A stretch of 64,000 bases of DNA from contig OX597836.1 in NCBI GenBank assembly GCA_951406725.2, positions 41,106,001 to 41,170,000 on the forward strand, read 5' to 3'. Under the pieces are notes generated by a model. The model had not been told where the DNA came from. It worked only from the letters and a program-made list of their open reading frames with translations, and did not search any database. Position numbers and translations under genes: made by a program. Shown here in pieces: positions 3,326 through 64,000 of the stretch. Numbering within the stretch: position 1 is the first letter of the stretch; each line of letters opens with the position of its first letter. Source of the stretch: Octopus vulgaris. Taxonomy: Eukaryota.

Positions 3326-3792
3326 CTTTTGTTATATTTCTGCTGCTTTTAGATAAAGCATATTACTCTACCTCTGGTATTTGAGTACTCTTTTTTACAC
3401 CTAGATTCACATTTATGTGCTTACTCCGGTAAATATATATATATATATATATGAAGAGTGAGAAAAACCTTTTTAATCGTTCGGATGTTCAGCTCCAAGT
3501 AACACACAAACACACACACCACACATACACGGGCACACACACACGCAGACACACACACGCAGACTTACACTATATGTCTGCTGTTCAAACGTCACTGATT
3601 GGTCCACCCCGGCCCTGAATATTAGATATTGTTTGTATGGTGGCTTGGACAGTGAAACCCATTACCTCAATGACCTCAGTTGACCTCAGTTGACCTCAGT
3701 TCACACCAGTTCACCCTCGCTTACTAAAGTTAACCTCAGTCGAATCCACGTAACCTCATATATATTCATTTTCCTCGGGTAATCCAGTTAAC

Positions 3793-4011: not shown

Positions 4012-4019
4012 TCATATAT
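4012..4019 (-). CDS. Uncharacterised S/P-rich protein, coding exon 6 (terminal; ...N-I-stop)
   Basis: Strong acceptor tattttctctttccattgcag; the phase-1 join gives A|AT ATA TGA. Confidence 0.55.
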
Positions 4020-4366
4020 CTGCAATGGAAAGAGAAAATAATACAGTGGGGTTCGCAAACGTGACAAGAAATTAATACTGCCAATATTTGGTGTGCATAT
4101 GTGTGTATAATCATACGTGTGTGTGCATGTGTGTGTGTATATATATGTGTGTAAGTATATATGCGTGTACATATATATATATATATATTTATTTTATATA
4201 TATATATATTCAAATCTGAAGATTCTACTAGAATAGATGCAAGCGCTAATAAATGATTTATAAAAACATGTGACGTATTAATAAAAATCTGTAAATATAT
4301 AAACATCCAGATTTCTGAATACCATATTTCTTCTAATATATAATACCTATACATCACCTCCAAACC

Positions 4367-4398
<32 letters not shown>

Positions 4399-4824
4399 CA
4401 CGAGGGGTGCTGGTCGGACCGAGGCTATAGGGAAAGACACTTGCTCAAGGTGCCACGCAGTGGGACTGAATATGGAACTAAGTGGTTTGATAGCAAGCTT
4501 TTTACCACACAGCCACGCCTGCACCTATTTATTTATAATGTAATTAAAACTCTTAACCGGTTTCATAATTGGTTGATTTTCAAAATTTACACTTTTGAAA
4601 ATCATACGCATGTGAAACCGGTGAAGTGTATTAATTTTAATATAAATAACTCCTCATATATACTCACTATGCAGTTTCAACTTCATTAGGCTCTTAAAAT
4701 TATGAAGGAAGGATAAAATTCAAGCACGATGCTTTTAAAATGTACAGTTTTGCGTAGCAGAGGCTGAAGATACAATCTAAGATGATTTGGTATCGGAAGA
4801 AGGAAAGATATATTGGTTACTTAC

Positions 4825-5142
4825 TGTAAGTGTCATCCTGTGAATAGGCAGCAGAAGTTGAATGATAACGCTGTAGACAACAACGACTGTTGGGATGATG
4901 TGACACGCTGCACCTTCCTGTACAACAGTTACAAGGCGGCAATGGTGGGCCTTGGAGCTGCGAAGACGGTGATCTACCGCTAAATGTGAAGTGAGCGTCG
5001 CTGCTTTCGTAATGAGATCTACGGTGTTGGCTGCCGGAAGAGGATGATGATGATGGGGATTCTGGGTAGAGTAAACGATGGTCATCAGGGAAATGATGAC
5101 AGCAGTGGCTCGCTTCGCCGTCAGTGGAGCTGTGTTTTGTTT
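4825..5142 (-). CDS. Uncharacterised S/P-rich protein, coding exon 5 (Cys/His-rich)
   Basis: Acceptor ttttttctccccctgctcag, donor GTAAGT; phase 1 in and out; ETKHSSTDGEASHCCHH...YSQDDTY. Confidence 0.85.
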
Positions 5143-5199
5143 CTGAGCAGGGGGAGAAAAAAAGCAAGGTACTACTTTTAGCTGATATCAAGTATTATA

Positions 5200-5390
5200 T
5201 ACATAGGGAGAGTTTACGAAAAGAAAAACACAAAAGACGAAGACAGCTGGTGTACAAAGCAAACATGTATTAGTATAACGCTCAGGAATTGAAAAAGTCT
5301 TTTACGTTTCGAGCCTATGCTCTTCTACAGAAAGGGACACAGAAAAAAAACAAGGAGAGAAAAATATGTGTGTAGCGGCTAGCGATGTAC
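5200..5390 (-). mobile_element. Penelope-like fragment with atypical hammerhead-like motif (family H2)
   Basis: Minus strand CTTTCTGTAGAAGAGC-ATAG-GCTC-GAAAC-GTA-AAAG; paralogues at 47186-47333 and ~35376-35455. Confidence 0.45.
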
Positions 5391-5564
5391 AGACTCGCAC
5401 ATACGCGCAGAGAAAACACACATACACATCTATTTAATACACAACCCAAAGAGTTACTAATTGTTTTATGGTTTTATGATATTTGAATAAGCATATTTAT
5501 AAAGTACGCCATGTAACTTAAATTAATCTTTCAGGCTCTGTTTATGTTATATATATATATATAA

Positions 5565-5948
5565 GTAAGGTTGTGTGTCTGTCTCCTACGATTTAGATTC
5601 CTAACTACTCCCACATTTTGCGATGCAGTTTAACCAAAACCGGGTATCTTATAGTCGTGATTCATATCGAGCCCTTCTGGGTATTAGCGCGCGCGTCTAC
5701 GATGAGTCTACGATTTAAAAAAAATTTACCATCATTTTTTTCCATTTCAATGCATTTTTTTCGCTATTATATAAGGGAGGTAACTCTCTAAAAATGTCTA
5801 CGACGAGTCAACGATTTAAAAATTTATTACCATAATTTTTTTTCCATTTTTAATGCTTTTTTTGCTATTTTTTGGCTATAACTCTCTAAAAATGCTTATA
5901 TAGTTATTTCCCTTACAAACCCGAGCAACGCCGGGCGATACTGCTAGT
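5565..5948 (-). mobile_element. Helentron/DINE-like non-autonomous element
   Basis: Reverse-orientation copy of 22416-22723, with an internal duplication. Confidence 0.6.
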
Positions 5949-6054
5949 GTTATATATGTTAAAAAACAAACAAACAAACAAGACGCTGGACAATGAGGAA
6001 ATAAAAGAAAAAACATGGAAAACGGGAATAAGGTTAGTACACATAATATATATA

Positions 6055-6257
6055 CTCTTTTACTTGTTTCAGTCATTTGACTGCGGCCATGCTGGAGCAC
6101 CGCCTTTAGTCGAGCAAATCGACCCAAGGACTTATTCTTTGTAAGCCCAGTACTTATTCCATTGGTCTCTTTTGCCGAACCGCTAAGTGATGGGGACGTA
6201 AACACACCAGCATCGGTTGTCAAGCAATGCTAGGCGGACAAACACAGACACAAACAT

Positions 6258-6288
<31 letters not shown>

Positions 6289-6458
6289 CATATATACGAC
6301 ACTCTTATTTCAGTTTCCGTCTACCAAATCCACTCACAAGGCTTTGGTTGGCCCGGGGCTTTAGCAGAAGACACTTGCCCAAGATGCCACGCAGTGGGAC
6401 TGAACCCGGAACCATGTGGTTGGTTAGCAAGCTACTTACCACACAGCCACTCCTGCGC
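6055..6458 (-). mobile_element. tRNA-derived SINE, family A (dominant family)
   Basis: Head GGCGCAGGAGTGGCTGTGTGGTAAG...GGTTCAGTCCC, internal (TA)n(TG)n, tail CAGCATGGCCGCAGTCAAATGACTGAAACAAGTAAAAGAG. Confidence 0.9.
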
Positions 6459-6737
6459 CATATATATATATGAGTGTGTGTATAAAAGGGTAGGTATTAT
6501 ATTTATATGCATACACATAGACAAGTGTGTGCAGACGTGAATATCAAGATGCATAGTGATACTAACAGACAAATACATCTGTATGTAAAGACACTCAAGT
6601 ATATAATTTCTCTCCCTCTCTTTGTATTTGCTGTCCGTCTGTCTGTTTGTCTGTCACACACACACACGTACACACACATACACACACAGACACACACACA
6701 CGTACATATACATGCTACGTTGGAAAACCGACTGTAC

Positions 6738-7404
6738 CTTCCGACTGTCTGCAAAACAACCGCCTTTTCGCCACTCCGTTGCGCTGGCGATCTGCGCAGT
6801 CGTGAACCCGCGATTGATGGCACGGCAGGTCACCGGGTGCCCAGCCGTACGAAGACGGCGACCCCCGATGCTGACAGCCGATATGACAAGGAGACTGATG
6901 GAAACTGGCGGGTGAGTGCGACGACGGGACCTGCGATGGCGGAGCCGGAGACTTGACTGGTGTAGAATGACTCGTATCATACTGCTGCTGCTTCGGCTTC
7001 TGCTGCTGCTGCTGGCTGGGAAAGATGAACGGATTGCTGGGGGAAGGTATTAGTTGAGGCTGTTTCCGACGTATCCGCGACGGACTTTCAAGAGGTGTTG
7101 CCAGATATTCATGTTGAAGCGAGGAATTTCCAGGTCCTTCTTCGAATCGTACTTCCGATGGTTGACTGCTACGGTCGAGGCAAAGGTCGCCAGTTGATGT
7201 AGAAGGGCGGTACGACTGCGCATGCCCGGCGGGCGATATCTTCGAGACTGGAGAAATGTAAGTGCTGGCGTGTCGTGACGTCAGATGGGAAATTTTGGGC
7301 GTCGTGTGGTGGAGGTTAAACGGCGACGGTGGCAGCGGTGGCAACATGGTCGGCGAATGGACAACCTCGTTGTGAGATGGAGGCGATGGTAGGAGATCGG
7401 AATC
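6738..7404 (-). CDS. Uncharacterised S/P-rich protein, coding exon 4
   Basis: Acceptor ttgtttcccttctcag, donor G|GTACAG; phase 0 in, 1 out; GC-rich open frame DSDLLPSPP...VAKRRLFCRQSE. Confidence 0.88.
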
Positions 7405-7446
7405 CTGAGAAGGGAAACAATATGAAATTATAAATAGGTAGACTGA

Positions 7447-8218
7447 TACGTACATACATACATACATACATACATACATACATACATACATACATACATA
7501 CATACATACATACATACATACATACATACATACATACATACGTACGTACATACATACATACATACATACACACATACATACATACATACATACATACATA
7601 CATACATACATACATACATACATACGTACGTACGTACATACATACATACATACATACATACGTACGTACATACATACATACATACATACATACATACATA
7701 CATACGTACGTACGTACATACATACATGCGTACGCACGTACGTACATACATACATACATACATACATACATACATACATGCATACATACGTACATACGTA
7801 CATACATACATACATACATACATACATACATACATACATACATACATACATACATACATACGTACATACATACATACAAACATACATACATACATACATA
7901 CATACATACATACATACATACATACATACATACATACATACATACATACGTACATACATACATACATACATACATACATACATACATACATACATACATA
8001 CATACATACATACATACATACATACATACATACATACATACATACGTACATACATACATACGTACGTACATACATACATACGTACGTACATACATACATA
8101 CATACATACATACATACATACATACGTACATACATACATACATAATACATACATACATACATACATACATACATACATACATACATACGTACATACATAC
8201 ATACATACATACATACGT
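7447..8218. repeat. (TACA)n microsatellite with TACG variants
   Basis: About 770-bp tetranucleotide array. Confidence 0.97.
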
Positions 8219-8635
8219 AACATTAATGGCGAATTAATGCGGAACTTAAAACTCTTGTACCTTGGCAATGAATTTTCGTTTGTACCACTCATCACTGGTA
8301 CATTAGGTTATGTACCAATAAATTTTCACAGAAATCTAGAAACACTTGGTTTCACGGAAAAAGGGCAAAAGAAACTGATGTAGATTCTTCAAATCAAGTC
8401 TATTAGTGGCACAGTGAAGATCTGTAAGGCTTTCCAAGCATTGTCCATCTGAGATTTTTAAGCGAATAAATGCACACACGTGGGCATATGTATCGACAGT
8501 TCAACCACCGACAGACGACACCAGCTCAAGCCCTTATTTACAACACGGGGAACTCTCTTAACTCCCAAAGTATTGTCCCTTTGTTAGCAGCTGGCTTGAG
8601 CTCTCTCAAAAGGAACTTAAACTAAACTCAAACAT
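8219..8635 (+). mobile_element. R4/Dong-like non-LTR retrotransposon 3' fragment (C-terminus of the REL-endonuclease ORF)
   Basis: GELMRNLKLLYLGNEFSFVPLITGTLGYVP...LETLGF...LQIKSISGTVKICKAF; flanked by (TACA)n. Confidence 0.6.
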
Positions 8636-8649
8636 CATATATCATACGT

Positions 8650-8944
8650 TCCTTCTCGAACCATGCCTGGCTCAATAGAGCCGGTTTCCCGGTTTCTTGG
8701 CGTATAGGCTCCCCACTTGGACGGGACGCCAGTCCGTCGCAAGTGAGCTGCAAGATGCAGGAGGAAAGAGTAAGAGAAAGTTGTGGCGAAAGAGTCAGCA
8801 GAAGTTCGCCATTACCTTCTGCCAGAGCTGCATGAAGCTTAGGTGTTTCGCTCATAGACACACACATCGCCCGGTCTGAGATTCGAACCTGCGATCCCTC
8901 GACCGCGAGTCCGCTGCTCTTATCACTAGGCCATGTGCCTCCAC
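8650..8944 (-). mobile_element. tRNA-derived SINE, family C-related, with 12-bp TSD
   Basis: Head GGAGGCACATGGCCTAGTG...GGTTCGAATCTC; TSD TATATCATACGT at 8638-8649 and 8945-8956. Confidence 0.75.
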
Positions 8945-9219
8945 TATATCATACGTACATACATACATACATACATACATACATACATACATACATACAT
9001 ACATACATACATACACGCATGCATGCATGATGGAAGTCAATTCATGAGGTGGGTAAGACTACTTTTTAAACGCAGCTTGTGCAAGCAAATTTTCCTTGAG
9101 CGCAAGAAGGTCCTCTCCGGGAAATTGTTTTAAGCGGATGAAGTATTGTCCAACACTGAACCCACTTTTAGGCGCGATCGGCTTTAACATCAGCGGCACA
9201 ACTATAAAAAGTAGTTACC

Positions 9220-9458
9220 TACTCGAGCCATATCGGTTCATAAGGGCCGGTTTCTTGGTTCCGTGGTGTATATATTCCCCACCTGGACGGGACGCTGGTC
9301 CGTCGCAGGATAACTCATTTTTGACAGCTGAGTGGACTGGAGCAATGTGAAATGAAGTGTTTTGCTCAAGAACACAACTCGTCACCTGGTTTAGGTATCG
9401 AAACCACAATTTTACGATCATGAATCCAACACCCTAAGCACTAAGCCACGCGCCTCCA
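9220..9458 (-). mobile_element. tRNA-derived SINE, family D
   Basis: Head GGAGGCGCGTGGCTTAGTG...GGTTTCGATACC; body TGTTCTTGAGCAAAACACTTCATTTCACATTGCTCCAG. Confidence 0.7.
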
Positions 9459-9470
9459 CAGTGACGCAAC

Positions 9471-9637
9471 CACTCGCGTAGCTAGTGTGCCGCCCGTGGT
9501 GGCCTTTCCGTTTGCCGCCCGTGGACCTCACAAAAAAACACATATTACCTACAGCAGACCCCAAAAACTCGTGCCTCTTTAAAAGTGCTGCCCGGGACGG
9601 ACCACCCCTACCGGCCTCCACCACAGCTACGTTAGTG
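9471..9637. mobile_element. hAT-type MITE
   Basis: TIRs CACTCGCGTAGCT / AGCTACGTTAGTG; degenerate 8-bp TSD GACGCAAC/GGCACAAC. Confidence 0.45.
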
Positions 9638-9936
9638 GGCACAACTAAGATTGAGGTGACCAGAAACCAACTTTATGTCTGTTATATTTATTTATATTTA
9701 TAAGGTTTTCCCTTCTCCCAGAAGGAAGTTCTAACGAGAACTAGAGGTCCTTGATTCCCAGTGGTTTACATGTTATTTAACCGAAAGCTGGGACCCTGAC
9801 AGATGCTGCCACTTTGGGTCAGCGTAGACCTTGGAACAATACTACTGTCAAAGAGGTGGTTCCATACACATCAAAATTCCGGAACTCCTCAACCGGGGCC
9901 CCACGATCAGATGCTGTATCAAGTAATACCTAAGAA

Positions 9937-10025
9937 ACACACACTCACACACGCACACACTCACACACACACACACACACACACACTCACAGACACACTC
10001 ACACACACACACACACAGACACACA

Positions 10026-10067
<42 letters not shown>

Positions 10068-10109
10068 GACACACTCACACACACACACACAGACACACAC
10101 ACACACACA

Positions 10110-10175
<66 letters not shown>

Positions 10176-10331
10176 GACACACTCACACACACTCACACAG
10201 ACAGACACACACACACACAGACACACACACACAAACACACACACACACACACAGACAGACAGACACACACACACACACGCACGCACACACACACACACAG
10301 ACAGACAGACAGACACACACACACACACACG

Positions 10332-10362
<31 letters not shown>

Positions 10363-10378
10363 ACACACACACACACAT
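9937..10378. repeat. (CA)n microsatellite with CAGA/CACT variants
   Basis: About 440-bp array. Confidence 0.97.
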
Positions 10379-10537
10379 GATGGGTTTGCGCGCATTTGCA
10401 TAGTCTCCGCATTTCAAATGCTATTTAGAGGGCATTAATCTATGTTGCATAAAAAAAATTCTCGTAATTTCGATAAAACAAAACAAAACAAAGCAAAACA
10501 AAACAAAAAACTCCAGAAAGACAAAGTATTTGCTTAC

Positions 10538-11664
10538 CCAGAGTTGGTTATCGCACGATCGATTTCGGGTGACGTCTTTATTCGACCAACGTCTAAACAT
10601 GACTTTACCAGCGTCGCTGTCCTCCTTCAACGCTTGAATTCTGTTGTACATCTCGTCCTTTCTGTATATTCCCTTCTTGTCGTAGGAGGGCACGAAAGTG
10701 GATTCGTAAGGGAACTCATCAGGGATAGGATGTTCTGGATCGTGTATATAATCAACCGGAACTAACCCCGATAAGGAATGACCAAATACCGTTGTTGGAC
10801 ATGGCCTTTGATCAAACCTCATTTTTTGTTGACAAGATTCCTGTGAGCTTTCGTGTCCATGAAAAACGCTCCTCTCTGTTGGACATAATATCGACTCGTC
10901 TTCTAATATATTCGCCTGCTTGCAGAAGCTACGATTGCTATATCCGCCGGAAGCATTCTCCTCGTAGCATCTGCATGATGTCCTCCTGAAGCAGTCTTTA
11001 TAGACCGGTGATTCTGCAGTCTTTTGTCTACGTTCGCAGGCACTCTTCACTAAACGAGGTGATGGCGGAGTAACAGCAGACGATTTGTTCGCCATTGTGT
11101 AATAATCTGAGTCGTCTTGCGATGATCGACACCTTTCTCTGACCGGTAGTTTATCTACGGTTATCGGAGGAGGTGACGCCATATTGAGATCTGTGAAATT
11201 TTCCACAATTTCCTTGTCGTTCATGGAGCTCATATCGACCGGACGTTTTCTGTTTCTTTTGTCGTGTGAAAAGACAGCCGTGTTCAATTCTCCCGTAGGC
11301 AGATCTGAAAAGAAGAAGTTTCCGCCATCGTTGCTTTTCGCACATTTCGACGGAGTGCAAGGCGATTGAGCCAGTATCGTATAAGGGGAATGAGGTAAAG
11401 GGGATTGACAGGATTTGCTTCTTAGACGTGCTCCATGTTGAGGTGAAGTACGTATCATATATTGAGTTATGGACGTCTGGCTTTTGGCCCGTGAAGGGCT
11501 GGACGAGGTACCGTCCTGTGACGATTTTTGAGGGGAGCAATCAAACTCATCTTTTAAGTCGAGTGGTTTGGTAAAAGTTTTTGCTTTTCTCTTGGGAGGG
11601 TCTTGCAATTTGAAGGTTTTACTTTCTTCTTCATCGTATCTGTCTTCGTCTTCTTGAAACATGC
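10538..11664 (-). CDS. Uncharacterised S/P-rich protein, coding exon 3 (1127 nt)
   Basis: Lies in a non-repetitive 426-codon ORF; acceptor ttttacttctatgttcag, donor TGG|GTAAGC; phase 1 in, 0 out. Confidence 0.92.
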
Positions 11665-11909
11665 CTGAACATAGAAGTAAAATTACTGCCATGGAAATCA
11701 AAATTCAAAACTATAACAGAACATGTAACATAAACTGCTTACGGAACTTAGAACTTGAAATCAAATGTTGAACGTTTAAGCCATAAACTTCTGAGAGTGT
11801 TAATGTTGATACACAGGGAATGTAGGCTGCAAAATCTTGTTGCCATTTAATCTAATACAGTCATGCTTTGCGGCTTTGTATTAGGTCAGAAGTATGTCAA
11901 GCCTTAACT

Positions 11910-12397
11910 CTTTAATATGAACCATTTTATTGCATAATGCGTCTCCATCTTGCCTTTGACTTGAAAATACCCACTTCCCAGAATTGAGGTGGCTTCATGG
12001 CAAATAATTCATCAAGGGATCTTTTTACGTCATCCAAGGAATTGAAATTTTTACCATTAAGACTATTCTGCAGAGATCCGAATAAATGGAAATCCGAAGG
12101 AACAATATCTGGTGAATATGGAGGGTAGGGTAACACATCCCAACCGAGCTGTAGCAATTTTTGTCTGGTTCCCAAAGCATTAAGTGCCGAAAATGAACTT
12201 TCTTATCTTCCATTTTAAAGGGTTACAGAATTAACACAGGTTATAGGAACATAAACCTTCTTCCACGAAAAGATAGCTTAAACTGTGCTCTAAATGGAGG
12301 TGTAGTCAAATCCTATTTTATGGATTCAACCATGTTCTAAAATAAGTCGAAAGGTAAGCTACTATAAATTGGCATGAACTTTCCGGACAACCCAATA
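11910..12397 (-). pseudogene. Internally deleted mariner transposon
   Basis: TIR TATTGGGTTGTCCGGAAAG; N-terminus MEDKKVHFRHLML joined to a catalytic-domain fragment LGWDVLPYPPYSPDIVPSDFHLF (YSPDLAP motif). Confidence 0.85.
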
Positions 12398-12562
12398 GAA
12401 AGGATTATTTTCATCTTTAGTCTAAGAAGGAGCAAAACTTTTGAAGATAAATGACTTAAATTTCCGATAGGTATATCTTTTTAAGGGGAAAACGTGAAGC
12501 AGGGTAGCAGGTTGCATGTTCGAGATTGTGTTTTTAATGGTGAATGGTTTTGATAGACTTAC

Positions 12563-12752
12563 CGTAGGTTAACATTGTGTCTCGGGGGGAAACTAGTGTG
12601 GTAGGAGGGGCTGCCGTGAAGATCTTAGGAATGATGCTATCTGCGGATGGTGAGGTTGAACTCTCGAGCGCCGATGATGATGATGGGAACGATGAAGATG
12701 AAAATGACGATGAAGATTTATCTGTTGCGTTAGTTCTTCTCATCTTGCTTTC
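12563..12752 (-). CDS. Uncharacterised S/P-rich protein, coding exon 2
   Basis: Acceptor tctacatttttcgatag, donor G|GTAAGT; phase 0 in, 1 out; ESKMRRTN...RDTMLTY. Confidence 0.82.
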
Positions 12753-12826
12753 CTATCGAAAAATGTAGACAGATATTATTAGAATGGACATATGATGCGT
12801 AACACATGAAACGTACTCATTTCTGA

Positions 12827-13550
12827 GGGATTAAGTCGATTACATCGACCCAAGTGCGTAACTGGTACTTATTTAATCGACCCCGAAAGGATAAAAGGAA
12901 AAGTCGACCTCGGCGGAATTTGAACTCAGAACGTAACGGCAGATGAAATACCTATTTCTTTACTACCCAGAAGGGGCTAAACACAGAGAGGACAAAAAGG
13001 ACAGACAAACGGATTTAGTCGATTATATCGACCCCAGTGCGTAACTGGTACTTATTTAATCGACCCTGAAAGGATGAAAGGCAAAGTCGACCTCGGCAGA
13101 ATTTGAACTCGGAACGTAACGGCAGATGAAATACCTATTTCTTTACTACCCAGAAGGGGCTAAACACAGAGAGGACAAACAAGGACAGACAAACGGATTA
13201 AGTCGATTATATCGACCCCAGTGCGTAACTGGTACTTATTTAATCGACCCCGAAAGGATGAAAGGCAAAGTCGACCTCGGCGGAATTTTGAACTCAGAAC
13301 GTAGCGGCAGACGAAATACCTATTTCTTTACTACCCACAAGGGGCTAAACACAGAGGACAAACAAGGACAGACGAACGGATTAAGTCGATTATATCGACC
13401 CCAGTGCGTAACTGGTACTTAATTTATCGACCCCGAAAGGATGAAAGGCAAAGTCGCCCTCGGCGGAATTTGAACTCAGAACGTAGCGGCAGACGAAATA
13501 CCGCTAAGCATTTCGCCCGGCGTGCTAACGTTTCTGCCAGCTCGCCGCCT
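12827..13550 (-). mobile_element. tRNA-derived SINE family B, head plus tandem ~184-bp units (about 4-mer)
   Basis: Head GGCGGCGAGCTGGCAGAAACGTTAGC at 13549; junctions at 12945, 13128, 13313. Confidence 0.88.
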
Positions 13551-14098
13551 TAACAAGTTAAACAATCGGGAGAAGCTTTATAGACAATGCTTCCGGGTTT
13601 AGAATACGCGAAGCTTAGCCCAGTGTACCAACCACTAGTTTTTCTAGCTAGAATGAAATTCCTCCCTAGTACATAACTGGTATTTATTTTATCATTCTCC
13701 TGGGAACTTGAGACAAAATCGTTCATAGATGTAAGAATAACAACGAAGTAAATAATAACGTTCCCTGTCGTATTAGGAGATGTCACAGAGTCCCTGGACT
13801 TGAATATAAATTACCGGGATTCGAACACATAAACGGGGTAACCCAAGTGAGCCGTTCTAATGACGATTACAAAGGTAAAGATGTTGCGTAAAGATGATAC
13901 TAATGAGGAGAATGATGCTGATGATGCCGATGATAATGCTAATGTCGTTGTGGATGGTGGCAGTGACGATGGTAAGAATTAGGAAACTGAAGACGTTACC
14001 CTTAAAGCTATCTAGGATAAAGAAGACATTGCACTCAATCGCACATATGCATATGTAATCTTTCTTTCTTTCTTTCGTTCTTTGTGTATGTATGATTA

Positions 14099-14188
<90 letters not shown>

Positions 14189-14486
14189 AAGTAGATAAAT
14201 GAATTATCTTATTACGGATTATTCAAATGATAACCGATACCTGGGTAGCAAAAACACAACAGAAAAAGCACGGTTGAGGTTACGACCATGGGGTCTAAAA
14301 TCCGTGCCTTAGTGCGGAAATTTGAAGTTTTATATATTTGAAACATATGTAGAAAATAATAAAAAGGAATTTTGTTAAGTCTTCGTTCAGCTCCATTTCT
14401 TCCTACACTAAATATATATATATATATGTATATATTCATATATATATATATATGTATATATTCATATATATATATATATGTATATA

Positions 14487-14564
<78 letters not shown>

Positions 14565-14566
<2 letters not shown>

Positions 14567-14960
14567 CGCTGGAGTGGCTGTGTGGTAAGTAGCTTGCTAA
14601 CCAACCACATGGTTCCGGGTTCAGTCCCACTGCGTGGCACCTTGGGCAAGTGTCTTCTGCTATAGCCCCGTGCCGACCAATGTCTTGTGAGTGGATTTGG
14701 TAGACGGAAACTGAAAGAAACCTGTCGTATATATGTATATATATGTATATGTGTGTTTGTATGTCTGTGTTTGTCCCCCTAGCATTGCTTGATAACCGAT
14801 GCTGGTGTGTTTACGTCCCCGTCACTTAGCGGTTCGGCAAAAGAGACCGATAGAATAAGTACTGGGCTTACAAAGAATAAGTCTCGGGGTCGATTTGCTT
14901 GACTAAAGGCGGTGCTCCAGCATGGCCGCAGTCAAATGACTGAAACAAGTAAAGAAAGAA
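14565..14960 (+). mobile_element. SINE family A
   Basis: Full-length copy following (TA)n. Confidence 0.9.
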
Positions 14961-15189
14961 AGAATAGACGGCCTTTTCTGTCCCTTTCTCAAGCTGTTCT
15001 CAAGGCGTTCAAAATAATTTTTCCTTTCGTTCAGGCTTAACAGCCCTTACCGTTTGTATTACTGTTATTCTCCTCGTCCTGTCTTTTACTGTTTTTATTT
15101 GTATTGTTTTTACTGTCCTGTTCTTGGTACCACTTTTACCCTCCGCAAAAAATCCCAAATTTTATTTAATTTGCTTTGCGGGAAGGACT

Positions 15190-15450
15190 GTTTCAACGAA
15201 GTCGTGTCTCGCCTTTACCTTCGAAACACGGAGTAGACGAAGCAGAGGCGGCTGAAGAAGGGGAATTTTCCTTATGTTGTATGTTTCCTCCTCTGTTTAT
15301 TCGTTGTTTAAAAAAATGTCCATTTCCATGGTTTTGTTTTTATGTTTTCGTTTCTCATTGTGTTCGACGTTTTTTTGGTGTCCTGTACCCATATATGCAT
15401 GTATATATACATATAGATGTAGGTACGTACATATATGTATGTATATGTGC
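15190..15450 (+). mobile_element. Dispersed repeat (possibly Penelope-derived), family H3
   Basis: Inverted paralogue at ~35500-35750, partial copy at ~19035-19110; contains GAAAC..GTA and CTGAAGA half-cores. Confidence 0.5.
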
Positions 15451-15492
15451 ATATATTTTATTTATTATTTTGTTATTTTATTTATTATTTTG

Positions 15493-15579
<87 letters not shown>

Positions 15580-15581
15580 CA

Positions 15582-15621
<40 letters not shown>

Positions 15622-15812
15622 AACCACAAAACCGAACCGTGGGTGAAATATGAAAGTAAATATATTCCCCTTATACTCTTAATGTTCTTCATCTTGCAAA
15701 AAAACCTCAAAAAAAAAAGCAAAAATAAAAACATGCGCCACAGAAATCGGGAAACCGGGCCCATGAGCCTGAGCCTTGAAAAGGGCCCATAAATAAATAA
15801 AAATGCATATAG

Positions 15813-16228
15813 ACGCCGGAGTGGCTGTGTGGTAAGTAGCTTGCTTACCAACCACATGGTTCCGGGTTCAGTCCCACTGCGTGGCATCTTGGGCAAGTGT
15901 CTTCTACTATAGCCTCGGGCCGACTAAAGCCTTGTGAGTGGATTTGGTAGACGGAAACTGAAAGAAGCCTGTCGTATATATGTATATATATATATATATG
16001 CGTGTGTGTGATTGTGTGTCTGTGTTTGTCCTCCTAGCATTGCTTGACAACCGATGCTGGTGTGTTTACGTCCCCGTCACTTAGCGATTCGGCAAAAGAG
16101 ACCGATAGAATAAGTACTGGGCTTACAAAGAATAAGTCCCCGGGGTCGATTTGCTCGACTAAAAGGCGGTGCTCCAGCATGACCGCAGTCAAATGACTGA
16201 AACAAGTAAAAGAGTAAAAGAGTAAAGA
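15813..16228 (+). mobile_element. SINE family A
   Basis: Full-length; its tail ends about 12 bp from the exon-1 donor. Confidence 0.9.
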
Positions 16229-16239
16229 GACATACGCAC

Positions 16240-16392
16240 CTCGACTTGGCTTCTAGAAGCACAGATGACAGGATACTTCACATTCAAAGAACTGTTCAGT
16301 TGTTTGTGTTTTTGTGGCGTTAACGGAGGTGTTGGCGGCGTGTATTCCACCGAAACTGTGCGCTCTGACTCTTTTGTTGGGGTGAAATCCAT
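16240..16392 (-). CDS. Uncharacterised S/P-rich protein, first coding exon (exon spans 16240-16416 including 5' UTR)
   Basis: Acceptor ttttttaaatttcag, in-frame TAA upstream of gcgcaATGG, donor GAG|GTGCGT in phase 0 matching exon 2; MDFTPTKESERTVSVEYTPPTPPLTPQK... Confidence 0.78.
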
Positions 16393-16499
16393 TGCGCTTT
16401 AACCAGTCGATACGATCTGAAATTTAAAAAAACACAAAAACATTGTCTTAGACTACAGCTGTTTCAGACAATTTAAAGGCTTCACTTGCAATGGCATCT

Positions 16500-39339: not shown

Positions 39340-40275
39340 TGAGTCGATTACACCGACCCAGTGTTCATCTAGTACTTTATTTTATCATATTTCTTTACAA
39401 CCCACAAGGGGCTAAACACAGAGAGGACAAACAAGAACAGACAAACGGATTAAGTCGATTATATCGACCCCAGTGCATAACTGGTCCTTAATTTATCGAC
39501 CCCGAAAGGATGAAAGGCAAAGTCGACCTCGGCGGAATTTGAACTCAGAACGGATTAAGTCAATTATATCGACCCCAGTGCATAACTAGTCCTTAATTTA
39601 TCGACCCCAAAAGGATGAAAGGCAAAGTCGAGCTCGGCGGAATTTGAACTCAGAACGTAACGGCAGACGAAATACCTATTTCTTTACTACCCACAAGGGG
39701 CTACACACAGAGGGGACAAACAAGAACAGGCAAACGGATTAAGTCGATTATATCGACCCCAGTGCATAACTGGTCCTTAATTTATCGACTCCGAAAGGAT
39801 GAAAGGCAAAGTCAACCTCGGCGGAATTTGAACTCAGAACGTAACGGCAGACGAAATACCTGTTTCTTTACTACCCACAAAGGGCTAAACACAGCGGGGA
39901 CAAACAAGGACAGACAAACGGATTAAGTCGATTATATCGACCCCAGTACGTAACTGGTCCTTAATTTATCGACCCCGAAAGGATGAAAGGCAAAGTCAAC
40001 CTCGGCGGAATTTGAACTCAGAACGTAACGGCAGACGAAATACCTGTTTCTTTACTACCCACAAAGGGCTAAACACAGAGGGGACAAACAAGGACAGACA
40101 AACGGATTAAGTCGATTATATCGACCCCAGTACGTAACTGGTCCTTAATTTATCGACCCCGAAAGGATGAAAGGCAAAGTCGACCTAGGCGGAATTTGAA
40201 CTCAGAACGTAGCGGCAGACGAAATACGGTTACGCATTTCGCCCGGCCTGCTAACGTTTCTGCCGGCTTGCTGCT
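39340..40275 (-). mobile_element. SINE family B multimer (about 5 units)
   Basis: Junctions at 39669, 39853, 40037, plus one shortened unit. Confidence 0.88.
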
Positions 40276-52238: not shown

Positions 52239-53065
52239 CAGCGCCGTCTTAAGAATGGGCACACAGAACAGTTGCCCAGAGAAATTACGGGTCCAGGGAC
52301 CTAATTTTGGACTATGTATGTTATGGCTTGCTGTCAGTAAATAAATGCTATAGGGCCCAGCGCACTGATTTGCACGGGGCATCACGAGGCTAGGAGCCCA
52401 GTTTTGAACTATGTGTGCTGTGGCTTGCTTTCAATAGATAAGTGCTTTAGGGCCCAGCGCATTGATGTGCCCGAGGGTCACACGAGGCTAGGAGCCCAAT
52501 TTTGAACTATGTAAGCTGTGACTTGCTGTCAATAAATAAGTGCTATAGGGCCCATCGCATTGATGTGCCCGAGGGCCACACGAGGCTAGGTGCCCAATTT
52601 GAACTATGCATGCTGTAGCTTTCTGTCAATAAATAAGTGCTATAGGGCCCAGCACATTGATGTGCCCGAGGGCCACTCGGGGTTAGGAGCCCAATTTTGA
52701 ACTATGTATGCTGTAGCTTTCTGTCAATAAATAAGTGCTATAGGGCCCAGTGCATTGATGTGCCCGAGGACCACACGGGGTTAGGAGCCCAATTTTGAAC
52801 TATGTATGCTGTAGCTTTCTGTCAATAAATAAGTGCTATAGGGCCCAGCACATTGATGTGCCCGAGGGCCACACAAGGCTAGGTGCCCAATTTGAACTAT
52901 GTATGCTGTAGCTTTCTGTCAATAAATAAGTGCTATAAGGCCCGGTGCAGTGATTTGCCTAAAGGCCTAACAAGTGTAGGGGCCCAATTCTGATCTATGT
53001 ATGCTAGGGCTTGCTGATAGCAAATAGATACTATTGATTTGCCCGGGGGGAATAAGACGGCCCTG
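52239..53065. mobile_element. hAT-type non-autonomous element carrying eight ~98-bp tandem units
   Basis: TIRs CAGCGCCGTCTTA / TAAGACGGCCCTG; TSD GTTGTAGT/GTTCTAGT. Confidence 0.82.
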
Positions 53066-54180: not shown

Positions 54181-54705
54181 GAATTATTGTTACGCTTCTG
54201 CTGTTCTAATCATTGATATGATGTTGTTCTTTTGCATTGTTGATATCGTGACATTGTGAAGACAACCCTTGTTGTATTTGTGCTATGGCTGATATAGTGT
54301 TGATGTGGTGATGTTCATGCTAAGACGTTGCTGTTGCTGTATGACTGTTGTAGTGTTGTTATAATACTGATGTTATGTTTCTATATTACTGATGTGTTGA
54401 TATTTTTTGTTGTGGGATTGTGGGTTTATTAGTTATTACTGGTGTGATGTTGATGTTGGGATGCAGCCGTTGTGACATTGATGTCGGCCTGCTGCTGCTG
54501 CTGGTGAGCTGTTGATGTTTGGGCAGCTGCTGTTGTGTTGCTGATGTTGGAGTGGTACTGTTGTGATGTTGATGCTGGAGTGCTGTTGTGATGGGGAGAT
54601 GCTCCTGTACTGTTGCTGTTGGGGTGCTGCTGTTGTTACGATGATAATGTTGAAGTGCAGCTGTTGAAATGTTGACGACGGAATACTGCTGTGATGATGT
54701 TTGAG

Positions 54706-56675
54706 GCTGGCATGGTGGAGTTGTGATGTTGATGCTGGCATGGTGGAGTTGTGATGTTGATGTTGGCATGGTGGAGTCGTGATGTTGATGTTGGCATGAT
54801 GGAGTTGTGATGTTGATGCTGGCATGGTGGAGTTGTGATGTTGATGTTGGCATGGTGGAGTTGTGATGTTGATGCTGGCATGGTGGAGTTGTGATGTTGA
54901 TGCTGGCATGGTGGAGTTGTGATGTTGATGTTGGCATGGTGGAGTTGTGATGTTGATGCTGGCATGGTGGAGTTGTGATGTTGATGCTGGCATGGTGGAG
55001 TTGTGATGTTGATGCTGGCATGGTGGAGTTGTGATGTTGATGTTGGCATGGTGAGTTGTGATGTTGATGCTGGCATGGTGGAGTTGTGATGTTGATGCTG
55101 GCATGGTGGAGTTGTGATGTTGATGCTGGCATGGTGGAGTTGTGATGTTGATGCTGGCATGGTGGAGTTGTGATGTTGAAGCTGGCATGGTGGAGTTGTG
55201 ATGTTGATGCTGGCATGGTGGAGTTGTGATGTTGATGCTGGCATGGTGGAGTTGTGATGTTGATGCTGGCATGGTGGAGTTGTGATGTTGATGCTGGCAT
55301 GGTGGAGTTGTGATGTTGATGCTGGCATGGTGGAGTTGTGATGTTGATGCTGGCATGGTGGAGTTGTGATGTTATTGCTGGCATGGTGGAGTTGTGATGT
55401 TGATGCTGGCATGGTGGAGTTGTGATGTTGATGCTGGCATGGTGGAGTTGTGATGTTGATGCTGGCATGGTGGAGTTGTGATGTTGATGCTGGCATGGTG
55501 GAGTTGTGATGTTGATGCTGGCATGGTGGAGTTGTGATGTTGATGCTGGTATGCTGGAGTTGTGATGTTGATGCTGGCATGGTGGAGTTGTGATGTTGAT
55601 GCTGGCATGCAGGAGTTGTGATGTTGATGCTGGCATGCTAGAGTTGTGATGATGATGCTGGTATGCTGGAGTTGTGATGTTGATGCTGGCATGGTGGAGT
55701 TGTGATGTTGTGATGCTGGCATGGTGGAGTTGTGATGTTGATGCTGGCATGGTGGAGTTGTGATGTTGATGCTGGCATGGTGGAGTTGTGATGTTGATGC
55801 TGGCATGGTGGAGTTGTGATGTTGATGCTGGCATGGTGGAGTTGTGATGTTGATGCTGGCATGGTGGAGTTGTGATGTTGATGCTGGCATGGTGGAGTTG
55901 TGATGTTGATGCTGGCATGGTGGAGTTGTGATGTTGATGCTGGCATGGTGGAGTTGTGATGTTGATGCTGGCATGGTGGAGTTGTGATGTTGATGCTGGC
56001 ATGGTGGAGTTGTGATGTTGATGCTGGCATGGTGGAGTTGTGATGTTGATGCTGGCATGGTGGAGTTGTGATGTTGATGCTGGCATGGTGGAGTTGTGAT
56101 GTTGATGCTGGCATGGTGGAGTTGTGATGTTGATGCTGGCATGGTGGAGTTGTGATGTTGATGCTGGCATGGTGGAGTTGTGATGTTGTGATGTTGATGC
56201 TGGCATGGTGGAGTTGTGATGTTGATGCTGGCATGGTGGAGTTGTGATGTTGATGCTGGCATGGTGGAGTTGTGATGTTGATGCTGGCATGGTGGAGTTG
56301 TGATGTTGATGCTGGCATGGTGGAGTTGTGATGTTGATGCTGGCATGGTGGAGTTGTGATGTTGATGCTGGTATGCTGGAGTTGTGATGTTGATGCTGGT
56401 ATGGTGGAGTTGTGATGTTGATGCTGGCATGCAGGAGTTGTGATGTTGATGCTGGCATGCTAGAGTTGTGATGATGATGCTGGTATGCTGGAGTTGTGAT
56501 GTTGATGCTGGCATGCTGGAGTTGTGATGATGATGCTGTTATGCTGGAGTTGTGATGTTGATGCTGGCATGCTAGAGTTGTGATGATGATGCTGGTATGC
56601 TAGAGTTGTGATGATGATGCTGTTATGCTGGAGTTGTGATGTTGATGCTGGCATGCTGGAGTTGTGATGTTGATG
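54706..56675. repeat. 28-bp minisatellite (GCTGGCATGGTGGAGTTGTGATGTTGAT)n, about 70 copies
   Basis: Homogeneous core with degenerate edges. Confidence 0.95.
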
Positions 56676-57499
56676 CTGTGGAGCTACTTTAGTAGTGTTC
56701 ATGCTGGGGTACTGCTGATCTGATGTTGATGTTGTGACGCTGGATATGTGATGTCGAATGTTATGGCGCTGCTGTTGTGATGCTGATGTTTCGTTTGCAG
56801 CTGTTGTGGTGCTGATGCTGGAGAGCTGTTGTTGTAATGCTGATGTTATGAATTAGATTTTGAGGTGCGGCTGTTGTGATGTTGATGTTGGGAACTGCTG
56901 TGGTGATGTTGATTTCGGGTCGGCAATTATTATGATGTTGGCGTCGGGGTGCTGGGGTTGTGATGCTGATGTTGGCGTGCTGGCGTTGTGTTGTTCATAG
57001 TAGAATGCTGCTGCTGTGATGCAGATGTTGTATTTCTGTTGTGATGTCGATGTTAGGAAGCTGCTTTTGCGATGTTGAAGTTGGGATGCTGCTGTAGTAA
57101 AGCTGATGTTGAGGGGGTCTAGTGTTGTCATGTTGATGTTGGATAGTGCTGTAGTGAAGTTCATGTTGGGAAGCTGATGTTGTTAAGTTGATGCTGTGAT
57201 GTTAAGTTGATGCTGGGTTGCTAGCATTGTATTGCTGATGCTGGTGAGCAGTAAATTTTGATGTGGCGATATTGTGATGCTGCTTATGAAAAACTGTTGT
57301 TGCGAGGCTGATATTGGGGAGTTACTGTTATGATGTTGATATGGTGGGGCTGTTTTTCTGATGATGATGTTGGGTGATACTGTTGAGAATAATGATGTTC
57401 GGATGCTGCTCAGGTGATGACATTGTTAGATTGTTGCTTTTAGGAATTCGCTATAATGTTGATGTTAGAGTGCTGCTGTGGTATTGTCAATTTTAGATT

Positions 57500-63400: not shown

Positions 63401-64000
63401 GTGATGTTGGGGTGCTGTTGTGATGTTGGGGGTGCTGTTTTAAAGTTGGGTGTGTAGTTGCGATGTTTGGGGTGATGGTGTGATGTTGGTGGTGCTGGTG
63501 TGATGTTGGAGGTGCTGGTGTGATGTTGGGGGTGCTGGTGTGATGTTGGTGGTGCTGGTGTGATGTTGGGGTGCTGTTGTAATGTTGGGGGTGCTGTTCT
63601 AAGGTTGGGTGTGTAGTTGTGATGTTGGGGGTGCTGGTGTGATGTTGGGGGTGCTGGTGTGATGTTGGTGGTGCTGGTATGATGTTGGGGGTGCTGTTTC
63701 AAAGTTGGTGGTGCTGGTGTGACGTTGGGGGTGGTGCTGTTGCGATGTTGGAAGTGCTGGTGTGATGTTGGGGGTGCTGGTATGATGGTGGCGGTACTGG
63801 TGTGATGTTGGGAGTGGTGCTGTTGTGATGTTGGAGGTGCTGATGTGATGTTGGGGGTGCTGTTGTGATGTTGGAGGTGCTGGTATGATGTTGGGAGTGG
63901 TGCTGTTGTGATGTTGGAGGTGATGGTATGATGTTGTGGGTGCTGTTGTGATGTTGGAGGTACTGGTGTGATGTTGGGAGTGGTGCTGTTGTGATGTTGG
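57500..64000. repeat. 20-bp minisatellite (GATGTTGGGGGTGCTGGTGT)n with recurring variant units; runs off the window
   Basis: Variants such as GGAGG, GGGTGTACTGTT and GTTTCAA(T/A)GTT recur in blocks. Confidence 0.95.
57768..57867. other. Assembly gap (100 N)
   Basis: Run of N. Confidence 1.

What the first reader, a model, noticed from the sequence alone, without database searches (positions are those of the whole stretch)
4012..16392. Unrecognised 820-aa low-complexity protein combining PIP-box, cyclin-docking, Fbw7-degron and CDK motifs
Seen: six exons splice in frame (phases 0,1,0,1,1) into an S/P-rich protein with no domain I recognise. It contains QTSITQYM (aa 177-184, nt 11456-11479), VAKRRLF (aa 701-707, around nt 6754-6774), PPTPPLTP (nt ~16315-16338), seven S/T-P-x-K/R sites (TPTK, TPQK, SPQK, SPSR x2, TPSK, TPVK) and basic NLS-like patches PPKRKAK and KRNRKRP. 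Known: the p21 PIP box is QTSMTDFY, the p107 Cy motif is SAKRRLFG, and the c-Myc Fbw7 degron is LPTPPLSP. Inference: a lineage-restricted nuclear cell-cycle or replication regulator (PCNA- and cyclin-binding, SCF-degraded) with the PIP/Cy order reversed relative to Cip/Kip proteins. It lacks the TD and +4 basic residues of a CRL4-Cdt2 PIP degron.
Basis: partly seen in the sequence, partly recalled or inferred. Interest (0 to 1): 0.72.

Follow-up and report, generated by a model that had tools for sequence, protein, structure and literature searches.

The report
Cephalopod-only cell-cycle motif protein
This is a real, spliced octopus gene for an 820-residue protein predicted to have no fold, found so far only in octopods, cuttlefish and close kin, whose conserved short motifs suggest that it likely grips the DNA-copying clamp and cyclins and is likely destroyed on a cell-cycle timer.

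Summary
Observation confirmed. Six exons give an 820-aa frame, 811 of 820 identical to RefSeq Octopus sinensis LOC115231760 X1. Of 41 listed exonic differences, 31 are silent. The gene appears single-copy and is predicted unfolded (pLDDT 35), with no Pfam, PDB or Atlas match. Relatives appear in only six protein clusters, all named ones coleoid cephalopods. At 34-38% identity the TPPLTP degron, the PIP-like box, RRLF and three CDK sites are conservation islands. Limits: the PIP box has Met at position 8, so it is non-canonical and not a Cdt2 degron. Four of seven CDK sites and the first NLS are not conserved. p21 also has a Cy motif after its PIP box. It is not the octopus p21/p27, which lies elsewhere. 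Best reading (0.55): a CDK-timed, PCNA-tethered adaptor cleared by SCF-Fbw7. Binding and expression in dividing cells are untested.

The parts
16240..16392 (-). Coding exon 1 (aa 1-51). An in-frame stop lies 3 codons before the ATG; an acceptor-like site ends at 16417, so a non-coding exon upstream is possible
16309..16341 (-). TPPTPPLTPQK (aa 18-28): Fbw7-type degron T21-P-P-L-T25-P with a full CDK site at T25
   Evidence: 8/8 invariant in 4 full-length proteins; TPPx[ST]P shared by all 4 in 0 of 2000 column shuffles; consensus [TS]PPx[TS]P from PMC8955265
12563..12752 (-). Coding exon 2 (aa 52-114) with the ADS/TIxxKxFxAAP island (12647-12603), partner unknown
10538..11664 (-). Coding exon 3 (aa 115-490)
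   Evidence: its 374 whole codons are identical to the start of P0013
11591..11620 (-). [KR]TFKLQDPPK (aa 130-139): the most conserved island, partner unknown; near-match to the Mad2-interacting consensus
   Evidence: 9/9 invariant in 6 of 6 proteins; strict MIM not met, relaxed pattern met
11456..11500 (-). SPSRAK-x-QTSITQYM (aa 170-184): conserved CDK site S170, basic flank, non-canonical PIP-like box
   Evidence: Q, I, Y/F and M kept in 6 of 6; relaxed PIP p=0.0005; canonical PIP and PIP degron not met
11345..11365 (-). SPCTPSK (aa 215-221): paired proline-directed sites with a full CDK site at T218
   Evidence: 7/7 invariant in 6 of 6, flanks 0.08
11240..11260 (-). KRNRKRP (aa 250-256): basic NLS-like patch; K-x-x-R-K-R conserved
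   Evidence: my monopartite NLS pattern was not met at one shared column
11180..11209 (-). IVENFTDLNM (aa 267-276): NES-like spacing (4 of 5 hydrophobic positions) or acidic LIR-like FxxL
   Evidence: shared by all 4; p=0.010 (NES pattern), 0.0035 (LIR pattern, recalled); NES consensus in PMC4666095
10538..10786 (-). Central conserved block (aa 408-490), 31 invariant columns among 5 proteins; no confident fold; contains RRxS
6738..7404 (-). Coding exon 4 (aa 491-712), S/P/Q/H-rich and poorly conserved
6754..6774 (-). VAKRRLF (aa 701-707): Cy/RxL cyclin-docking motif
   Evidence: G-[VML]-[AT]-[KR]-RRLF in all 4 full-length proteins; [RK]RLF p=0.0015, general RxL p=0.13
4825..5142 (-). Coding exon 5 (aa 713-819) with a Cys cluster (PCxC 4936-4922; CxQ-type 4882-4871), possible metal site, untested
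4012..4019 (-). Coding end of exon 6 with the stop; contigs run on to about 3570-3640 as likely 3' UTR

Best explanation
This spliced, purifying-selected cephalopod gene encodes a protein predicted to be disordered that likely works as a cell-cycle adaptor, likely tethered to PCNA, likely phosphorylated by cyclin-CDK and likely cleared by SCF-Fbw7. Shown: the gene structure, four spliced junctions, purifying selection, no detectable family, and short islands kept across octopods and cuttlefish. Inferred steps: (1) the RKR patch and the NES-like motif 10 residues later would set nuclear residence. (2) QxSITQ[YF]M with its basic flank would seat in the PCNA pocket; lacking TD and a +4 basic residue it would not trigger CRL4-Cdt2, so the protein would stay through S phase. 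(3) Cyclin A/E would dock on RRLF and CDK would phosphorylate T25, S170 and T218. (4) Phospho-S170, seven residues before the Gln, would cut the positive flank charge and loosen PCNA binding. (5) Phospho-T25 would prime GSK3 at T21, making the pTPPxpTP degron read by Fbw7; predicted isoforms starting in exon 2 or 3 would escape this. (6) The output would be carried by the unexplained islands (TFKLQDPPK, ADSIxxKxFxAAP, the 83-aa block), which would bind the partners brought to replicating chromatin.
For: Three independent cell-cycle motif classes plus CDK sites coincide with conservation islands in proteins only 34-38% identical. Column shuffles that keep the island layout, 2000 rounds: relaxed PIP p=0.0005, [RK]RLF 0.0015, TPPx[ST]P 0/2000, three shared full CDK sites 0.001; all three motif classes together 0/2000. 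Substitutions fall where the consensus allows: Y/F at PIP position 7, T/M at position 2, K/R before RRLF, Q/K at +2 of TPxK. Full CDK sites exceed shuffles at p<0.05 in 5 of 6 proteins. PIP flank net charge is +2 to +3 in 6 of 6, and flank charge correlates with PCNA affinity (PMC6881253, passages). Degron consensus and GSK3 priming: PMC8955265 passages. PCNA and cyclin exons that I read as A, B, D and E types (labels recalled) are in the genome. 31 silent against 10 replacement differences. AF2 mean pLDDT 35.3, no residue at 70 or above.
Against: No binding, localisation or turnover data. PIP position 8 is Met, so the canonical consensus fails in 6 of 6. The relaxed patterns were chosen after seeing the sequence, so the p-values overstate the case; the general RxL pattern alone gives p=0.13 and TPxx[ST] alone 0.029. 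In PMC8955265 early degron candidates were positive in only 5 of 22 and 5 of 21 tests, and the motif also suits MAPKs. RRLF lies about 390-680 residues C-terminal of the conserved proline-directed sites, far for docking-guided phosphorylation (my knowledge). Four of seven CDK sites are not conserved. The best-conserved island fits no cell-cycle motif strictly. The alignment is in effect two lineages, four full-length sequences.
Confidence: 0.55

Rival explanations
1. A very diverged orthologue of a known disordered metazoan replication or mitosis factor, whose homology has decayed beyond detection. It would work much as above but would not be a cephalopod novelty.
For: Identity falls to 34-38% within coleoids alone, so homology to other molluscs could be invisible. 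Three of the four searches need shared 5-residue words, and the exhaustive one used a single sequence. Only 48 of 2290 genes in cephalopod-specific synteny blocks were orphans (PMC9023564, passage).
Against: A profile of the 83-aa block at E<=10 returned only the same 6 clusters among 1074 candidates. No Pfam family in 7 of 8 members and one sub-threshold hit, E=0.014, in the eighth. No PDB hit at E<=10. Atlas feature scores at most 0.79.
Confidence: 0.18
2. A signalling, transcription or autophagy scaffold outside the cell cycle: MAPK/GSK3-type kinases drive the degron, the acidic FxxL motif binds ATG8 proteins, and the PIP-like and RRLF matches serve other partners.
For: [TS]PPx[TS]P suits MAPKs. 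The LIR-like pattern is shared by all four (p=0.0035; pattern recalled). RRxS is conserved in the central block (p=0.10). PIP position 8 is non-canonical.
Against: It needs two separate coincidences (PIP-like spacing with an aromatic swap, and RRLF), and the three shared sites keep the +3 basic residue typical of CDKs.
Confidence: 0.14
3. A KID-less inhibitor that acts like the C-terminal half of p21: it competes for PCNA pockets and cyclin grooves to slow S phase or favour cell-cycle exit, rather than recruiting partners.
For: p21 has a PIP box followed by a Cy motif (PMC4666095), the same order as here. RRLF is far from the conserved CDK sites, which suits stoichiometric binding.
Against: No CDI domain, no similarity to the genome's own CKI (probability 0.3%), and two CDI-domain ORFs exist elsewhere. 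Several further invariant islands would be unneeded for simple competition.
Confidence: 0.08
4. A HORMA-domain ligand, mitotic or germline: [KR]TFKLQDPP is captured by Mad2 or a related protein, and the other motifs time it.
For: 9/9 invariant; has K/R at 1, Leu at 5 and Pro at 9 of the K/R-psi-psi-x-phi-xxx-P consensus (PMC4657174); relaxed pattern p=0.002.
Against: Positions 2-3 are Thr-Phe, not aliphatic; the strict consensus is not met; the relaxed pattern was fitted after the fact.
Confidence: 0.05

Closest known systems
p21/Cip-Kip CDK inhibitors
   Same: Disordered; PIP-type box starting QTS (p21 144QTSMTDFY); RRLF Cy motif (p21 19RRLF22); in p21 a second Cy motif follows the PIP box (PMC4666095).
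   Different: No CDI/KID domain; PIP lacks TD, the second aromatic and the +4 basic residue; PIP and Cy are 520 aa apart; has an Fbw7-type degron; octopus has separate CDI-domain genes.
PCNA-binding disordered regulators (p15PAF, Spd1, the Cdt1 N-terminus)
   Same: PCNA engagement through a short motif in a disordered chain, including degenerate motifs (PMC6881253); Cdt1/Dup carries a PIP box and many CDK sites (PMC2965682).
   Different: No sequence match to any; far longer than p15PAF or Spd1 (sizes recalled); no Cdt1 folded domains; not a PIP degron.
SCF-Fbw7 substrates with a primed diphospho-degron (c-Myc, cyclin E)
   Same: Core T-P-P-x-T-P fits [TS]PPx[TS]P; the +4 Thr is itself a full CDK site able to prime GSK3 (PMC8955265).
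   Different: -2/-1 are Pro-Pro after Tyr-Thr, not Leu-rich; no DNA-binding or cyclin domain; degradation untested. The c-Myc degron sequence itself is recalled.
Uncharacterized LOC115231760 (Octopus sinensis), LOC106874485 (O. bimaculoides), GAB1610659.1 (Argonauta hians), CAE1255079.1 (Sepia pharaonis)
   Same: Orthologues: 811/820 identical to the O. sinensis X1 model; that model is 92%, 54% and 38% identical to the others.
   Different: None carries a name, domain or function in its record; no paper in the library holds the five identifiers searched (GAB1610659.1 and CAE1255079.1 were not searched).

Membership tests
Cip/Kip CDK inhibitors | CDI/KID domain (PF02234) | tested here: not met
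   0 of 8 members hit; own-genome scan places CDI elsewhere; profile comparison with that CKI 0.3%
Cip/Kip CDK inhibitors | Cy motif [RK]xLx{0,1}[LF] | tested here: met
   RRLF in 4 of 4 full-length proteins; consensus from PMC4666095
Canonical PIP box | Q at 1, aliphatic at 4, aromatic at 7 | tested here: met
   Q, I, Y/F in 6 of 6; consensus PMC6881253
Canonical PIP box | Aromatic at position 8 | tested here: not met
   Met in 6 of 6, followed by Ile or Phe
Canonical PIP box | Physical binding to the PCNA pocket | not testable with these tools
   needs a binding assay; see Tried and rejected for the modelling attempt
CRL4-Cdt2 PIP degron | TD at 5-6 and K/R at +4 | tested here: not met
   TQ at 5-6; S, P or T at +4 in 6 of 6
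Fbw7 phosphodegron | [TS]PPx[TS]P core in a disordered region | tested here: met
   TPPLTP invariant in 4 of 4 full-length proteins; no fold
Fbw7 phosphodegron | Hydrophobic residues at -1/-2 | tested here: inconclusive
   Pro-Pro; PMC8955265 allows single relaxations
Fbw7 phosphodegron | Phosphorylation-dependent Fbw7 binding and turnover | not testable with these tools
   needs experiment
Mad2-interacting motif | K/R-aliphatic-aliphatic-x-hydrophobic-xxx-P | tested here: not met
   Thr-Phe at positions 2-3; other positions fit
CRM1 nuclear export signal | [quoted passage not shown] | tested here: inconclusive
   last four hydrophobic positions met in all; the first is Asp or Glu
Coleoid-restricted gene family | No homologue outside coleoid cephalopods | tested here: inconclusive
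   6 clusters only in 4 searches; 2 clusters have no species name; sensitivity for disordered proteins is limited

The most novel reading that the evidence does not exclude
A cell-cycle regulator invented in the coleoid lineage: a domain-free hub that joins a non-degron PCNA tether, cyclin docking, a CDK-primed Fbw7 timer and a new partner-binding motif (TFKLQDPPK, possibly a HORMA ligand), with degron-less isoforms as a stable form, and with no counterpart in model animals.
Probability: 0.3. Interest if true: 0.7.

Novelty: new variant of a known kind. Interest (0 to 1): 0.5.

Why it matters
The animal cell-cycle parts list comes from a few model species. A conserved cephalopod protein built only of short motifs would show a lineage adding a new regulator to the PCNA/cyclin/Fbw7 network, and would be a candidate for tuning progenitor proliferation in cephalopods. 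The invariant TFKLQDPPK and the 83-aa block are sharp, testable candidates for undescribed binding motifs. The kind of mechanism (a motif-built CDK substrate) is familiar, and nothing is yet shown by experiment, which caps the interest.

Tried and rejected
Artefact or mis-spliced model: rejected. Octopus p21/p27: rejected. Paralogue family: the own-genome profile search gave 5 matches, all exons of this gene, under a stricter first look that can miss weak hits. Folded domain: full length pLDDT 35.3; central block alone 54.2, pTM 0.14, one 4-residue helix; no fold search was run on such models. Pfam, PDB sequences and three Atlas searches gave nothing above chance. No run on record as RNA was listed; contigs cannot show level or tissue. 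Expression in proliferating cells: identifier searches in the supplements of PMC9712504 (2 files read; 1 unreadable; 2 more too large, including a zip that may hold the cluster markers), PMC13230822, PMC9815951 and PMC11202624 found nothing. The last uses other gene ids, so these blanks are uninformative. bioRxiv supplements were closed. Full-text searches for five identifiers and five motif strings found 0 papers. I looked for the Dacapo PIP sequence as a precedent for Met at position 8 and did not find it in PMC2965682. Neighbour genes for synteny: an ORF scan of the window and 20 kb on each side showed only repeat-like frames. Promoter motifs were not assessed because the start site is unknown. 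Earlier findings: four look-ups, none returned.


Full report
Gene model. The product is 811 of 820 identical to RefSeq Octopus sinensis LOC115231760 isoform X1 (P0011). The 374 whole codons of exon 3 are identical to the start of an Octopus vulgaris record (P0013) that is only 398 aa long and ends in other sequence. All motif coordinates are right.

Splicing and selection. Twenty of 24 listed runs hold part of exon 3; none is on record as RNA. I laid 5 different runs on two stretches. Junction 2-3 is joined with splice-site ends in 3 of 4 runs. Junction 3-4 is crossed by a 1964-nt contig of X2 and a 900-nt contig of X5, each recognised by the same length and depth. Junction 4-5 is crossed in X2, X5 and X7, and 5-6 by one contig of X2 (table 8). 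The X2 contig has 256 letters before exon 2, more than the 177 of 16240-16416, which hints at an upstream non-coding exon (inference). Of the 41 exonic differences listed in those two calls (33 further rows of any kind were not shown), 31 are silent and 10 change a residue, against 23-28% silent expected; p<1e-9. The gene is under purifying selection.

Family range. Four protein searches returned the same small set: exon 3 against longer proteins, 4 hits of 1677 candidates; exhaustive HMMER over 1.84 billion representatives with exon 3, 3 hits; a full-length profile at E<=1, 6 hits of 7979 scored; a profile of the central block at E<=10, 6 hits of 1074. Named members are O. sinensis, O. vulgaris, O. 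bimaculoides, Argonauta hians and Sepia pharaonis; P0007 and P0010 are unnamed and 70-77% identical to the cuttlefish protein. The own genome shows only this copy. Pfam, PDB sequences and the Atlas give nothing above chance. AlphaFold2 finds no fold for the whole protein (pLDDT 35.3) or the block (54.2). Absence outside coleoids is what the searches show, not proof, because identity is already 34-38% between the two lineages.

Are the motifs islands? In four full-length proteins (P0011, P0006, P0007, P0022) 171 of 821 positions are invariant, in 11 islands. PPTPPLTP is 8/8, QTSITQYM 6/8, AKRRLF 4/6, SPCTPSK 7/7 and TFKLQDPPK 9/9, with flanks at 0.08-0.20. P0009 and P0010 are shorter records that cover only the middle motifs and keep them. 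I shuffled alignment columns within conservation classes, 2000 times. Shared matches arose with p=0.0005 for a relaxed PIP, 0.0015 for [RK]RLF, 0/2000 for TPPx[ST]P and 0.001 for three full CDK sites (T25, S170, T218). Looser patterns are much weaker: general RxL 0.13, TPxx[ST] 0.029, RRxS 0.10. The relaxed patterns were set after seeing the sequence, so these values are generous.

The canonical PIP box is Qxx-aliphatic-xx-aromatic-aromatic, and the degron adds TD and a +4 basic residue (PMC6881253, passages). Here position 8 is Met in 6 of 6, positions 5-6 are TQ and +4 is never basic. Four of the seven CDK sites are not shared by all four proteins. PPKRKAK is not kept as an NLS; only K-x-x-R-K-R of the second patch is. 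p21 carries 19RRLF22 and 155RRLIF159 around its 144QTSMTDFY box (PMC4666095, passages), so PIP-then-Cy order has a precedent.

[KR]TFKLQDPPK is the most conserved island. It fits three positions of the Mad2-interacting consensus (PMC4657174, passage) but has Thr-Phe where two aliphatic residues belong. [IV]xxxFxxLxM has four of five NES positions and also looks like an acidic LIR (recalled). An 83-aa block has 31 invariant columns among five proteins. A further island in exon 2 and a Cys cluster in exon 5 are unexplained. RefSeq isoforms X2 and X3 start in exons 2 and 3 and lack the degron; they are models, not tested here.

Not a Cip/Kip protein. No member has the CDI domain. The genome holds two CDI-domain ORFs on another contig, one with its own RRKLF motif before the domain, and the family profile does not match it.

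Mechanism. The most economical reading is a disordered nuclear adaptor run by the cell-cycle clock (confidence 0.55). It would bind PCNA through the non-degron PIP-like box, helped by a flank of net charge +2 to +3, and so stay through S phase. Cyclin A/E would dock at RRLF. CDK phosphorylation of S170 would loosen the PCNA grip, and that of T25 would prime GSK3 at T21 to form the Fbw7 degron (consensus and priming: PMC8955265, passages, which also reports many false candidates). The unexplained islands would carry the output. Every step after motif conservation is inferred. The long distance from RRLF to the conserved phospho-sites is the main internal weakness. Rivals: an unrecognisable orthologue of a known factor (0.18), a scaffold outside the cell cycle (0.14), a KID-less competitor of the p21 C-terminal kind (0.08), a HORMA ligand (0.05).

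Literature. Full-text searches for five identifiers and five motif strings found no paper in the held library. Of PMC9712504, PMC13230822, PMC9815951 and PMC11202624 I saw the search listing and searched supplements only; the largest files of PMC9712504 could not be read and may hold the expression answer. Of PMC6881253, PMC4666095, PMC8955265, PMC4657174, PMC2965682 and PMC9023564 I saw passages only.

Verdict. A real, conserved, uncharacterized cephalopod gene whose motif set survives the conservation test. It works like a motif-built PCNA/cyclin/Fbw7 client but belongs to no named family tested. New variant of a known kind; interest 0.5.

Noticed in passing
G000 C4:103.11-103.24 Mb (L103, L110), C8:72.22-72.27 Mb, C25:19.58 Mb (L108), C21:32.04 Mb: 11 of 22 Cyclin_N matches lie in open frames of 277-365 aa, mostly in two tandem clusters. 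The 3 tested hold both Cyclin_N and Cyclin_C in one frame and have an altered substrate-docking helix (MRAIL label recalled): an apparently intronless, expanded and divergent cyclin family. One has an internal stop.
   Followed up: partly
L016:2727-4067 and 8717-9409 (G000 C2:43.83-43.84 Mb): Two CDI-domain ORFs 6 kb apart. A candidate last exon of the first would complete a PIP-like QTKIVGFL and overlaps the start of the second ORF in another frame. The acceptor was picked by pattern and is not confirmed by reads.
   Followed up: partly
window 11930-12400 (intron 2): Transposase-like remnant (mariner type by recalled motifs) with very high contig depth from other copies.
   Followed up: no
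L013:8471-9931 (-) and L012:3-485 (-): 487-aa frame that looks like reverse transcriptase plus GIY-YIG endonuclease (Penelope type, label recalled) beyond the gene's 3' end.
   Followed up: no
window 54695-56678 and 57868-64000: Long tandem arrays (periods 28 and 20) with a run of N near 57.8 kb; their long H/T/P/Q-rich frames look like repeat artefacts.
   Followed up: no
window 12828-13502, 39549-40227, 52303-53016: Tandem units of 183-184 bp (3.7 copies, two places) and 98 bp (7.3 copies).
   Followed up: no
P0013 (CAI9739652.1): The public O. vulgaris record holds exon 3 plus a different 24-aa tail, missing the degron and the Cy motif; probably a truncated model.
   Followed up: partly
L007 (G000 C1:143.99 Mb): A second, weaker PCNA_N match (44 aa, E=9e-8) apart from the main PCNA gene; a paralogue or related clamp subunit.
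   Followed up: no
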